DNA from: Octopus vulgaris
Taxonomy: Eukaryota
Assembly: GCA_951406725.2 (NCBI GenBank)
Contig: OX597818.1
Coordinates: forward strand, 9,548,001 to 9,612,000
DNA length: 64,000 nucleotides
Direction of reading: 5' to 3'
The translations under genes were made by a program, and so were the position numbers. Below are positions 31,653 to 42,222 of this stretch, piece after piece. Numbering within the stretch: position 1 is the stretch's first letter; the number at the start of each line of letters is the position of its first letter. The notes under the pieces were generated by a model. The model did not search any database. It saw nothing but the letters and a program-made list of their open reading frames with translations, and had not been told where the DNA came from.

Positions 31653-32658
31653 AATGGTTGTATACTGTCAATCTAACAAGAACGTGACAGTAGGGGGTAC
31701 ACCACCGCTGTATAGCCCTAGGAAGCATCGAACGCCTCCTGATGGCTTTGACACATTTTTCCCTGTGTCCTTATATACATTTACGAAGGGGAGACAAACA
31801 CCCCCGGCTGCCGGAACTGCATCCAGGGAGAACATCTGAAAGATGAAATACCTAGAAAAGGATAATGTGGGACCGGAGCCAGTTTCAGATTTTTCAAGAT
31901 ATGCCTGCACACATATACTTGATCTATCTTCATCAGCCAAACATATACCACGACAACATTTCAGATGTTACCACATTAATGCCAATACACTCGACTGAAA
32001 CGCCGAAACGCTAACAGAACGAGAACGGTGAAGAAGTTTCAATAAATTAGTAATGCAATACTAGAGTATTGCCTTCCAGTAAAGAATAGCCCGTGAGGGA
32101 AAAATATACATAGAAGTAAATATATGGCACAACGAAGTACCGATATTTACTGGAAATAGCGAACGTAATAATATGACGCTAACAGAACGTGACAGTAGGG
32201 GGTACACCACCGCTGTATAGCCCTAGGAAGCATCGAACGCCTCCTGATGGCTTTGACACATTTTTCCCTGTGTCCTTATATACATTTACGAAGGGGAGAC
32301 AAACACCCCCGGCTGCCGGAACTGCATCCAGGGAGAACATCTGAAAGATGAAATACCTAGAAAAGGATAGTGTGGGACCGGAGCCGGTTTCAGATTTTTG
32401 AAGATATGACTGCACACATATACACATATCAGCACACATATCAGCTAAACATATACCACGACAACATTTAAGATGTTACCACATTAATGCCAATACACTC
32501 GACTGAAACGCCGAAACGCTAACAGAATGAGAACGGTGAAGAAGTTTCAATAAATTAGTAATGCAATACTAGAGTATTGCCTTCCAGTAAAGAATAGCCC
32601 GTGAGGGAAAAATATACATAGAAGTAAATATATGGCTCAACGAAGTACCGATATTTAC
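31653..32658 (-). mobile_element. Tandem ~505-bp hammerhead-containing repeat (retrozyme / Penelope pLTR-like), 2 copies
   Basis: Direct repeats 31673-32150 and 32179-32658, flanked by (AT)n. Each unit contains an HHR motif. Related fragment at 58991. Confidence 0.85.
31865..31944 (-). ncRNA. Type-I hammerhead ribozyme with extended stem II
   Basis: TGG-CTGATGA-AGAT..(TCAAG/CTTGA, ATATG/CATAT)..ATCT-GAAA-CTGGCTCCGG-TC-CCA. Predicted cleavage between 31871 and 31870. Confidence 0.8.
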
Positions 32659-32710: not shown

Positions 32711-32768
<58 letters not shown>

Positions 32769-32775
<7 letters not shown>

Positions 32776-33225
32776 TCGCCATACTAATATGGCATTCTTA
32801 TAAAAATAAGAAAAAAGCTGTCCGCTTATTAGCTCCATGAGGCCATCGCCTTAAGTTAGCTATTTGATACACAAACTGTATCCATATAACCTTCGAACTA
32901 GGTAAATAAAACCATCGAACAGAGATTGTCGGAAGCGACACCTACTGGCTGGCTACGCTGCATTGAAAAGGGGCAATACCCCGAAACGCGTCTGTAGCTG
33001 CCGGTCAAGTAGTGTGGAGCGACTGACCTCCCTTGTTCGAAGGTTATATGGATACAGTTTGTGTATCAAATAGCTAACTTAAGGCGATGGCCTCATGGAG
33101 CTAATAAGCGGACAGCTTTTTTCTTATTTTTATAAGAATGCCATATTAGTATGGCGATAACTATTATTTTCCGGGAACGCTGCCGCTGTTCTCTTTTAGA
33201 GAGACTTAGTTATTTTAATATTTCT
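32769..33225 (+). mobile_element. Penelope-type inverted terminal repeat: 130-bp perfect arms enclosing a hammerhead
   Basis: Arms 32769-32898 and 33035-33164 with a 136-nt spacer, inserted in (AT)n. Confidence 0.85.
32957..32998 (+). ncRNA. Minimal type-I hammerhead ribozyme, U3-A8 core variant
   Basis: GCTGCA-TTGAAAA-GGGG-CAATA-CCCC-GAAA-CGCG-TC-TGTAGC. Stem I is extended by TGGCTGGC/GCCGGTCA and CTAC/GTAG. Confidence 0.85.
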
Positions 33226-33374
33226 ATTATATATATATATATATATATGCATATTATATGTTAATGTCCTGTTATTTGTATTTGTGTACCATTTCTTCCT
33301 TTTTTGCGTCCTTGTTTTCGTATACGTTCGCTGCTTTCTTCCAAGGAATCTAGTGCTCTTAGCTTATTTTTTCC

Positions 33375-33464
33375 TTGGAGCTGGCCAGATTGGAGCAATC
33401 TCGGGTATAACCAGTCGAAATTGCAAAGATAATCTGGAACTCGACTGAGGTAAGAAAACTCCAA
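33375..33464 (+). ncRNA. Scrambled-order (pseudoknotted) hammerhead-like motif within a T-rich repeat (33260-33580)
   Basis: GCTGG/CCAGT, CCAGATT/AATCTGG, GCAAT-C/GAAATTGC, TCGGGT/ACTCGA, CTGAGGT core, TTGGAG/CTCCAA. Confidence 0.6.
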
Positions 33465-33575
33465 AAGACCCGTCCTTGTTTTCTTTGTATCGCCTGTCTG
33501 GATGTTTGTTGTCCATTTTTTGCATCACCTAACTGCCTGGATAGTTTGCGTTCTTGTCCAATGTTTTGTATTTTG

Positions 33576-33623
<48 letters not shown>

Positions 33624-33731
33624 TATATGTGTTTGTGTATGTATGTATAACGGGCTGTGCTTATTTGTGTGTATGCATGCAATTGTATTAGTCAATGTAC
33701 ACTCATACAAATACAAACATATAAAATATGT

Positions 33732-41299: not shown

Positions 41300-42095
41300 C
41301 AAACAACTTGCACATGCAAGTGCTACCAGTTAAAATCTCCGTATACCGGAAGCTAGCAAGTGTATGGGGTCATCAGGAGAAAATGCGCGCCGTTTCGGGG
41401 CCTACCTCTCGACGGCATCAATGCGCACCGGCCCCCCTCACTGATATGAGGCCCCGCTTGCTAGATCAGCTGGTTATGAAGAACTCAATATACTTCTAGC
41501 CATCGCTCATCGTCTCTTTTTAACCAAATCCAGTGGCTAGCCTTCTCCACTGTAGATTGGATATCAGTCATGGTGGTATTGACTTTACGATGAGTTAAGC
41601 CTATCGATAACAACAGCCGTCTCACGCTGTATCCAACAAACCCTCTACATCCGACTTCGATAGGAAAATGTTCCGCTTTCCAGCCTGCGTCTTCACATTC
41701 CTCGAGGAGATTTTCATAACGGTTCAATTTTCGAGCCCGAGCGGCGTCCGTATTATCTTCATGAGGAACCGTTAGCTCGACTATATTTACAACTTTCTTT
41801 CTTTCACACCACATCAAAATATCTGTTTTTTTCGAAACTGGGATGGGAAAGAAAACCTGGCACCCAGGTAAATCTGCAGTTACCTCCCAATAGCCGTTCC
41901 ACTTTTCATTTTTCTCAGGAAGTTTCTTGATCTTCTTCTTGAAACGGATCCGCTGACCTGGTCGCACGAAGGTAATGAAATCTCTTGATGGTACTTTTAA
42001 CGGTTTTTCTATTAACTGAGTGATATTGTTCAAACTCCACATGTTTGATAAGTCTTCTTCAAACGTCACATGCTGGTTGACTAAGTCATCTATGT
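41300..42095 (-). mobile_element. HERO-like (R2-group, restriction-like endonuclease) LINE, 5'-truncated 3' end
   Basis: ORF 41485-42069: KTDILMW..IVELTVPHE..KLNRYENL..GW..FPIEVGCRGF..EKASHWIWLKR, a PD-(D/E)xK RLE C-terminus. GC-rich structured 3' UTR. Confidence 0.9.
41353..41464 (-). ncRNA. Scrambled-order (pseudoknotted) hammerhead-like motif in the LINE 3' UTR
   Basis: CTAGCAAG/CTTGCTAG, GGGGCCT/AGGCCCC, GTGCGC/GCGCAT, GCCGT-C/GAAACGGC, GAGAG/TTCTC and an intact CTGATGA. Confidence 0.7.
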
Positions 42096-42097
42096 TG

Positions 42098-42222
42098 ATT
42101 CTTCTTCTTCTTCTTCTTCTTCTTCTTCTTCTTCTTCTTCTTCTTCTTCTTCTTCTTCTTCTTCTTCTTCTTCTTCTTCTTCTTCTTCTTCTTCTTCTTC
42201 TTCTTCTTCTTCTTCTTCTTCC
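42098..42222. repeat. (CTT)n microsatellite
   Basis: Pure run adjoining the 5' truncation point of the HERO-like LINE. Confidence 0.97.

What the first reader, a model, noticed from the sequence alone, without database searches (positions are those of the whole stretch)
33375..33464. Second, sequence-unrelated instance of the same scrambled hammerhead architecture
Seen (+): TTGGA GCTGG CCAGATT gga GCAAT C TCGGGT ataa CCAGTC GAAA TTGC aaagat AATCTGG a ACTCGA CTGAGGT aagaaaa CTCCAA. Helix order matches the 41353 motif exactly (tether, stem II, extra helix, stem III, cleavage site, stem I, stem II', GAAA, stem III', extra', stem I', CUGANG, tether'). The helix sequences all differ, which amounts to natural covariation between two families. 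The host is a non-coding T-rich repeat in (AT)n, not an obvious RLE LINE. One core deviation is present (A9 is T). Inference: the fold is a recurring ribozyme variant used by more than one retroelement family.
Basis: partly seen in the sequence, partly recalled or inferred. Interest (0 to 1): 0.88.

Follow-up and report, generated by a model that had tools for sequence, protein, structure and literature searches.

The report
Core-opened hammerhead in Penelope-type repeats
This is a worn copy of a short non-coding jumping repeat whose RNA is predicted to fold into a self-cutting hammerhead wired in an order not found in the papers searched; truncated genomic copies tend to begin at the predicted cut, which suggests it does cut, and the same fold sits in two unrelated groups of animal retrotransposons.

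Summary
The fold is real; this copy is likely dead. 33375-33464 (+) lies in a 5'-truncated copy of a non-coding, ~770-bp, (TA)n-targeted, partly tandem repeat (family A; one pattern finds 11,485 copies vs 28 control). Its relatives restore G10.1-C11.1, stem I and CUGAGGA. Stems I-III covary between subfamilies, and a kink-turn joins stem III to the extra helix. The order is Eckert's type SGC/CSG opened between A9 and 10.1, a link they assumed unbreakable; I did not find it in print. In 95 copies, 29 5' ends lie between the predicted cut and +15, against 4 in the 16 nt before it (p 5e-6); two small replications were weak. The same wiring occurs in HERO-like LINE 3' UTRs (41353 motif; 53 of 79 metagenome loci) and at the 3' end of the Naiad Penelope-like element of this genome. 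By eye, published Naiad consensi, reported to lack canonical hammerheads, carry this form (4 of 19 ends seen) or intact type CSG (4 of 19). Cleavage is untested and the mobilising enzyme unknown. The scan has reported this fold before on other DNA.

The parts
33259..33575 (+). 5'-truncated copy of family A (subfamily A1), a ~770-bp non-coding repeat unit; fixed T-rich 3' end
   Evidence: Matches unit positions 458-768 at 89%; 40 scored copies at 88-91%; 3' ends
33228..33258 (.). (TA)n-type target tract on the 5' side
   Evidence: Sequence
33576..33628 (.). (TA)n target tract on the 3' side
   Evidence: TRF
33379..33384 (+). Stem II 5' strand (10.1-10.6), detached from A9; 10.1 is A here, G in the family
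   Evidence: 4 of 6 pairs with changes on both sides
33385..33391 (+). Extra helix X, 5' strand; equivalent of Eckert's stem I/II interaction helix
   Evidence: 89.5% of cells paired, no two-sided change in alignment A2; two two-sided changes by eye between A1 and copies such as L331 and L432
33392..33394 (+). Predicted kink-turn, non-bulged strand (3n, G2n, A1n)
   Evidence: G and A invariant in 32 of 32 rows; majority letters
33395..33400 (+). Stem III 3' strand with U16.1 (33399) and C17 (33400); predicted cut after 33400
   Evidence: 3 of 5 pairs with two-sided changes; 5'-end pile-up
33401..33406 (+). Stem I strand after the cut (1.1-1.6); one G.U here from A33404G
   Evidence: 2 of 6 pairs with two-sided changes
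33407..33410 (+). 4-nt linker joining the far ends of stems I and II
   Evidence: Sequence; type SGC has typically 3 nt
33411..33424 (+). Block G: stem II 3' strand (33411-33416), G12-A13-A14 (33417-33419), stem III 5' strand (33420-33424)
33425..33437 (+). Predicted kink-turn bulge (33425-33427), G1b-A2b-U3b (33428-33430) and X 3' strand (33431-33437)
33439..33451 (+). Stem I 5' strand (33439-33444) and C3-A9 (33445-33451); A9 is T in this copy only; no stem II strand follows
41353..41470 (-). Same wiring in the 3' UTR of family B, a young restriction-endonuclease LINE (HERO-like; clade name recalled); has a long tether and a hairpin at the A9/10.1 opening; predicted cut between 41411 and 41410
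41485..42099 (-). C-terminal endonuclease part of the family B ORF (5'-truncated copy); full copies encode 1,112-1,175 aa with an RT domain

Best explanation
The stretch is a decayed copy of a predicted self-cleaving hammerhead, non-circularly permuted and opened between A9 and G10.1, carried once per unit by a non-coding repeat that is likely mobilised by Penelope-like enzymes. Shown by sequence comparison: the strands run 10.x, X, III', cut, I, linker, II', GAA, III, X', I', CUGANGA; stems I-III covary; the core is constant while N7 takes all four bases. Inferred: stem III and X form one rod bent at a kink-turn, so that X returns to the far ends of stems I and II and clamps the loose 10.x strand. 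The hairpin loop then supplies the cut strand and the GAAA strand, and the usual hammerhead active site forms in one molecule. Inferred: cutting after C17 trims tandem or read-through transcripts to unit length. Reverse transcription starts at the fixed T-rich end in (TA)n. About a third of cDNAs that reach the motif stop at or just short of the cut 5' end, and the rest run through on uncut or religated (possibly circular) RNA, giving copies longer than one unit. This copy has lost G10.1 and A9 and probably cuts poorly or not at all.
For: Majority letters of five unfiltered BLAST sets (A1 n=29, A2 n=30, A4 n=33, C n=30, N n=26) all fit the descriptor with different helices and a canonical core. 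In a MAFFT alignment of 32 A copies 92.3% of cells pair, with 67 two-sided changes (0 of 500 shuffles; slid controls 15-43% paired). Among 52 distinct HERO-like hits found without asking for stem II, the partner lies just 5' of X in 44 (18% in flank swaps) and after A9 in 4. GA/GA with a 3-nt bulge occurs in 35 of 52, against 0-6 for other bulge lengths. 5' ends: 29 of 95 between the cut and +15, 4 in -16..-1, 4 scored exactly at the cut. In a 3'-anchored set of 30 (overlapping), 6 ends fall in +51..+19, 6 in +13..0 and 2 in the next ~50 nt. Penelope-type footprints: fixed 3' end in (TA)n, tandem periods 768-850, inverted 5' copies, as described for PLEs (PMC8557442). Type SGC and CSG RNAs cut in vitro, one even with A9U (PMC10085705). 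An extra base at the 5' end of stem II is known in natural hammerheads (PMC4209133).
Against: No cleavage assay; no raw RNA reads were available. Eckert et al. knew no insertion over 1-2 nt beside CUGAnGA, so an open backbone there may cost activity. Helix X shows no two-sided change in alignment A2 and an A.C mismatch in A2 copies, and the 'X of 5 bp or more' test is met by 79% of flank swaps. Family C/D/E, family B and, by eye, young subfamily A5 lack the canonical kink-turn. The 5'-end replication is weak: Naiad family 4 vs 0 of 19 (p 0.06), D/E 4 vs 3 of 39 (p 0.5) by script. The TA-rich linker could attract junctions by microhomology. 62 of 95 copies run well past the cut. A script test flagged no inverted copy in 72, so inversions are a minority. 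No family-A copy with an ORF was found, A units do not align with the PLE pseudo-LTRs examined, and young A subfamilies (0.98-0.99 identity, n=4 each) postdate the Naiad remnants (0.69).
Confidence: 0.74

Rival explanations
1. The fold is real but does not cut unaided: it is a protein-assisted or inactive structure kept as a signal for the reverse transcriptase, and the 5' ends come from enzyme stalling in the knot and TA microhomology.
For: A canonical Penelope hammerhead cut only with its protein, and cutting was not needed for insertion in vitro (PMC11167929). Most copies pass the site. Replications are weak.
Against: Every catalytic letter is kept across unrelated families while helices turn over. 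The step in 5' ends falls at the scissile bond, not across the knot. TA-rich stretches further upstream give a low rate (5 ends of 58 in 32 nt).
Confidence: 0.12
2. The core forms in trans: the hairpin loop of one unit docks on the 10.x and I'-CUGANGA strands of a second unit, so only tandem or dimeric RNA cuts, as for minimal Penelope hammerheads.
For: In one molecule X must travel from the foot of stem III to the tops of I and II. Eckert et al. raise the same steric doubt for some SGC RNAs. Family B has a 0-nt link on one strand. Minimal PLE hammerheads are thought to work as dimers.
Against: A conserved kink-turn sits exactly where the bend is needed. Stem III is a full 5-6 bp. HERO elements carry one motif per ~3.7 kb.
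Confidence: 0.08
3. Family A is a SINE-like passenger of the HERO-like LINE (or another LINE), not of a Penelope-like element, and got the motif from it.
For: Both carry the same wiring near their 3' ends; family B is young, intact and also partly tandem.
Against: No blastn similarity between the A unit and the B unit. A lacks HERO's tether and hairpin. B 3' ends mostly abut non-TA sequence while A ends in (TA)n. Inverted 3'-end duplications are a PLE trait and were not seen in 30 B loci.
Confidence: 0.05
4. Chance pairing in a repeat.
For: The window segment alone folds only moderately better than shuffles (z -2.3), and the drawn tether is accidental.
Against: Covariation; 53 of 79 sense-strand hits vs 0,0,0 in shuffles; 11,485 vs 28 pattern hits.
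Confidence: 0.01

Closest known systems
Type-SGC hammerheads (HRIMA-1 and variants), Eckert et al. 2023, PMC10085705 (read: abstract, introduction, sections 7, 13-16, first part of 18, passages; supplements not seen)
   Same: Order S, G, then I'-CUGAnGA; short stem I to stem II linker; fourth helix binding the other sides of I and II; double pseudoknot; same core.
   Different: The 10.x strand and its half of the fourth helix sit 5' of block S, so block C is broken after A9. Stem III and the fourth helix are joined on both strands, often by a kink-turn (term absent from their main text). Host is an animal genome, not metatranscriptomes.
Type-CSG hammerheads (same paper; two sequences, metagenomic DNA)
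   Same: Same cyclic strand order; 10.x followed by X, then S, then G.
   Different: X'-I'-CUGAnGA has moved from the 5' end to the 3' end. Intact CSG can be read by eye at the ends of four published nematode and spider Naiads.
Metazoan non-LTR retrozymes (PMC7229834, passages; bioRxiv 10.64898/2026.07.22.740005, parts 1-2 of 5)
   Same: Non-coding tandem units with one hammerhead each, dispersed monomers, suspected PLE partner.
   Different: Defined with type I hammerheads and found with type I descriptors; units mostly shorter; circular RNA shown there, not here.
Naiad Penelope-like elements (Craig et al. 2021, PMC8557442; passages, supplement table S1 and 3' ends in File S5)
   Same: (TA)n targets, partial tandems, inverted 5' copies; the octopus Naiad 3' end carries the identical wiring and kink-turn and is present in this genome with RT remnants upstream.
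   Different: Family A has no ORF and no detected sequence similarity to the Naiad end. The paper reports no canonical hammerhead, only 'core' or 'half core' words.
Minimal type I hammerheads of PLE pseudo-LTRs (PMC4209133, part 1 of 4)
   Same: Same place in the element and same proposed role; present in this genome's intact ~900-aa PLEs.
   Different: Circularly ordered, weak stem III, thought to need dimers.

Membership tests
Hammerhead ribozyme | Core C3 U4 G5 A6 N7 G8 A9, G12 A13 A14, A15.1-U16.1, H17 | tested here: met
   Family majority in five sets; all 11 letters in 19 of 29 A1 copies. The window copy itself has A9U.
Hammerhead ribozyme | Stems I, II, III abutting the core | tested here: met
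   Two-sided changes in 2, 4 and 3 pairs
Hammerhead ribozyme | A9 linked to 10.1 (at most 1-2 nt inserted) | tested here: not met
   The stem II partner is upstream in all A sets and in 44 of 52 HERO hits, after A9 in 4
Hammerhead ribozyme | Self-cleavage after H17 | not testable with these tools
   Only the indirect 5'-end step
Type SGC | Order S, G, CUGAnGA with short I-II linker and I/II interaction helix | tested here: met
Type SGC | Block C uninterrupted | tested here: not met
   As above. A weaker 4-6-bp pairing after A9 is possible in C/D/E and two HERO loci, not listed for A.
Type CSG | Intact block C first, then S, then G | tested here: not met
   No CSG hit in 2.09 Mb of held sequence
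Non-LTR retrozyme | Non-coding tandem units, one ribozyme per unit | tested here: met
   Periods 768-850 in six loci; no A-linked ORF seen in the part of the ORF list shown
Non-LTR retrozyme | Type I hammerhead | tested here: not met
Non-LTR retrozyme | Expressed as circular RNA | not testable with these tools
   Only assembled contigs were offered
Penelope-like element | RT plus GIY-YIG ORF | tested here: not met
   None linked to family A
Penelope-like element | Partial tandems, (TA)n bias, inverted 5' copy | tested here: met
   inversions in 2 of 30 A1 loci by BLAST and 4 of 30 C loci
Penelope-like element | Optional 30-40-bp tail | tested here: inconclusive
   A few copies extend ~45-50 nt to a second TA site (L021, L020)
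Kink-turn (consensus recalled) | 3-nt bulge then G1b.A1n and A2b.G2n between two helices | tested here: met
   A1, A2, A4, N; 35 of 52 HERO hits; not C. The bend itself is untested.

The most novel reading that the evidence does not exclude
A fourth way of opening the hammerhead, inside the catalytic core, is a widespread natural ribozyme architecture of animal genomes. It arose by circular permutation of type CSG, is braced by a kink-turn, and cuts in vivo. It is the missing ribozyme of Naiad elements and is shared by GIY-YIG and restriction-endonuclease retrotransposons and their non-coding passengers, which are copied from cut and recircularised RNA.
Probability: 0.5. Interest if true: 0.92.

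Novelty: new variant of a known kind. Interest (0 to 1): 0.83.

Why it matters
If it cuts, the six-permutation scheme for hammerheads is incomplete and standard descriptors and Rfam models miss a form present at over ten thousand places in one genome. It would explain why Naiad elements seemed to lack hammerheads and give type CSG a biological home. It would add a retrozyme class built on a non-type-I ribozyme and give a genomic read-out, 5' ends at the scissile bond, of ribozyme activity during retrotransposition. The central claim can be tested with one in vitro transcription.

Tried and rejected
Rfam: no ribozyme hit among the rows shown for the window (150 of 398) or for 32750-33600. MFE folding returns only the X plus III rod, since it cannot draw pseudoknots. 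Tether in family A: rejected; in HERO loci a tether starts at the base after A9 in 31 of 44. Autonomous partner: an A2 copy next to a PLE ORF (L112) proved a separate insertion. The ~900-aa PLEs carry type I hammerheads and A units match their loci only where separate A copies are inserted. Pfam named no family for two of these ORFs at its cut-off; PLE identity rests on recalled motifs. Viral contigs held no relative of the HERO endonuclease. Sequencing runs: no RNA holder listed. Contigs of four runs under four organism labels cover family A, and two show the head-to-tail joint, but contigs cannot show ends or circles. The -128..-190 bin reflects reference mismatch and was not used. Core invariance in alignment A2 is partly built in by my row filter, so core claims rest. 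Literature searches that found no description of this wiring. Subscription papers are not covered, and I did not see Eckert's supplementary alignments, which could hold such cases.

Full report
Observation. The 90 bases are as quoted. In hammerhead numbering the strands run: stem II 5' strand (33379-84), helix X (33385-91), GGA, stem III' with U16.1 and C17 (33395-400), stem I (33401-06), 4-nt linker, stem II' (33411-16), GAA, stem III (33420-24), AAA-GAT, X' (33431-37), stem I' (33439-44), CUGAGGU (33445-51). A descriptor for this order hit 3 places in 264 kb (both window motifs and a third copy) against 1,0,0,0,0 in shuffles. Rfam sees nothing relevant.

The host. The motif lies in a repeat with 3,530 first-look candidates; the 40 scored are 88-91% alike. 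Copies share a T-rich 3' end followed by (TA)n, vary at the 5' end, and occur head to tail with periods of 768-850 bp. Some carry an inverted copy of their own 3' part in front: 2 of 30 A1 loci and 4 of 30 C loci by BLAST, though a crude script flagged 0 of 72. I saw no linked ORF. These are the footprints described for Penelope-like elements (PMC8557442). A pattern for the 3' half of the motif finds 11,485 places against 28 for the reversed control; 16 of the first 30 fit the whole fold and most misses are 5'-truncated. The genome is probably an octopus, since one of its repeats matches the published octopus Naiad end.

This copy. It differs from the majority of 29 relatives at seven places. 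G33379A breaks the 10.1-11.1 pair, C33415T and A33404G leave G.U pairs, and A33451T is A9U (A in 29 of 29 others). Stem II drops from -10.1 to -6.1 kcal/mol as a duplex. The copy is probably dead, although Eckert et al. found an A9U type-SGC RNA that still cut.

Covariation. Subfamilies replace helix letters in pairs. Stem I reads TCGAGT/ACTCGA, TCAAGA/TCTTGA or TCAAGT/ACTTGA. Stem II reads GGCTGG/CCAGCC or GGGCA/TGCCC. Stem III reads GCAAT/ATTGC, ACAGT/ACTGT or ACTGT/ACAGT. On a MAFFT alignment of 32 copies, 92.3% of cells pair and 67 change on both sides (0 of 500 shuffles; slid partners 15-43%). Two-sided changes occur in 4 pairs of II, 3 of III, 2 of I and none of X, and two whole-structure measures do not beat shuffles; relatedness inflates such counts. 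By eye X does change on both sides between A1 and copies such as L331. In five BLAST sets not filtered for the core, the majority letters are canonical and N7 varies.

What is known. Eckert et al. (PMC10085705) split the hammerhead into blocks C, G and S, assumed block C cannot be interrupted, and validated types SGC and CSG in vitro. The present order is SGC with the 10.x strand and its half of the I/II helix moved to the front, or equally CSG with X'-I'-CUGAnGA moved to the back. A9 and 10.1 are then the open ends. Eight searches found no description.

Other carriers. (1) The 41353 motif lies in the 3' UTR of a young LINE with a 1,112-1,175-aa RT and endonuclease ORF; full copies are preceded by a partial repeat of their own 3' end. 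Of 79 related metagenome loci (best 80 of 308 kept; some redundant), 53 carry the fold, all on the sense strand, against 0,0,0 in shuffles. Without asking for stem II, 52 distinct hits have the partner just 5' of X in 44 (18% in swaps) and after A9 in 4; a tether begins at the base after A9 in 31 of 44. The kink-turn pattern occurs in 35 of 52 and is specific to a 3-nt bulge. (2) Families C, D and E are a second non-coding (TA)n group with other helices. (3) Family N is the Naiad 3' end, with RT remnants upstream in three loci. Craig et al. say Naiads lack canonical hammerheads but flag core or half-core words. Reading by eye the last ~600 nt of 19 of their consensi (names from file order), 4 fit the opened form (two octopus, one hydrozoan, one cubozoan), 4 fit intact type CSG (three nematode, one spider), and 11 showed neither. 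Seven of the eight fits are entries they flagged. The intact ~900-aa PLEs of this genome carry ordinary type I motifs.

Sign of cutting. For 95 A copies drawn from the first 100 hits and their fetched neighbourhoods (20 regions were chosen for rarer subfamilies or tandems, none for truncation), 29 5' ends lie between the predicted cut and +15 and 4 in the 16 nt before it (p 5e-6). Four score exactly at the cut, six by eye. A 3'-anchored set of 30, overlapping the first, shows a lower rate downstream (6 in ~46 nt), 6 in +13..0, and 2 in the next ~50 nt. Replication is weak: Naiad 4 vs 0 of 19, D/E 4 vs 3 of 39 by script. By eye the three D/E cases are a CT-repeat flank, an inverted junction at the cut and a full copy. 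TA microhomology in the linker may contribute. Since 62 of 95 copies run past the site and some exceed one unit, many templates were uncut or religated; the data cannot tell which. A canonical PLE hammerhead needed its protein to cut and was dispensable for insertion in vitro (PMC11167929).

Mechanism. Most likely one molecule folds: III and X form a kinked rod, X clamps the free 10.x strand and the I' strand at the far ends of stems II and I, the 4-nt linker replaces the loop-loop contact, and the standard active site cuts after C17. The cut yields unit-length RNA, which may be circularised as in non-LTR retrozymes (PMC7229834) and is copied into (TA)n by a PLE enzyme. Which PLE is open: the Naiad remnants (0.69 pairwise identity) are older than A3 and A5 (0.98-0.99, four copies each), so a still-active element is needed. 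Shown: order, pairing, core conservation, distribution, 5'-end step in family A. Inferred: kink, monomer, cutting, circles, partner.

Verdict. A new variant of a known ribozyme class, in a retrozyme-like element. The scan has reported the fold before in HERO and Naiad contexts; I reached the HERO and Naiad links from my own calls before seeing those notes. Interest 0.83.

Noticed in passing
window 32769-33230: A separate Penelope-like end: 134-nt inverted arms (32769-32902, 33031-33164; 99%) around a decayed canonical minimal type I hammerhead at about 32957-32998 (read by eye).
   Followed up: partly
PMC8557442 File S5, entries before Naiad-1_Nbra, Naiad_Hcon, Naiad_Asuum and Naiad_Lpol: By eye these nematode and spider Naiad ends are intact type-CSG hammerheads with an I/II helix, a type known from two metagenomic sequences.
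   Followed up: partly
L274 (-) near 1282; L290-L319; L391; L392: Families C, D, E: a second ~800-930-bp non-coding (TA)n repeat group with the same wiring, no canonical kink-turn, and a weaker alternative stem II after A9 that would give true SGC; possible intermediate.
   Followed up: partly
window 41353-41470 (-): In family B the hairpin at the A9/10.1 opening holds a sequence complementary to CUGAUGA, which could act as an off switch (and sequence); read by eye only.
   Followed up: no
L081, L082, L084, L085: Full HERO-like copies are preceded by 96-1,677 nt of their own 3' end; L085 starts about 26 nt after the predicted cut.
   Followed up: partly
G000, one search hits (e.g. L272, L273, L281, L283): Many intact ~900-aa Penelope-like ORFs ending in (TA)n, with type I minimal hammerheads; not recognised by Pfam at its cut-off; candidate partners for family A.
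   Followed up: partly
L367 (-) upstream of 1500: A second, diverged restriction-endonuclease LINE remnant with a decayed motif of kink-turn type.
   Followed up: no
L431, L485, L503, L534: Palindromic insertions in which the forward arm starts at or within ~10 nt of the predicted cut.
   Followed up: partly
family A unit, first ~130 nt (L087:4432-4560): A GTAAGT-like donor followed by a pyrimidine tract and CAG, resembling the 5' intron of Penelope elements (recalled); not tested.
   Followed up: no
window 31668-31967 and 32179-32475 (-): Two similar ~99-aa open frames, a local duplication of a repeat fragment; no Pfam hit for the first.
   Followed up: no
L082:3-1382: Another restriction-endonuclease LINE (460-aa C-terminal part) directly upstream of a tandem family B insertion; no descriptor hit in its 3' UTR.
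   Followed up: no
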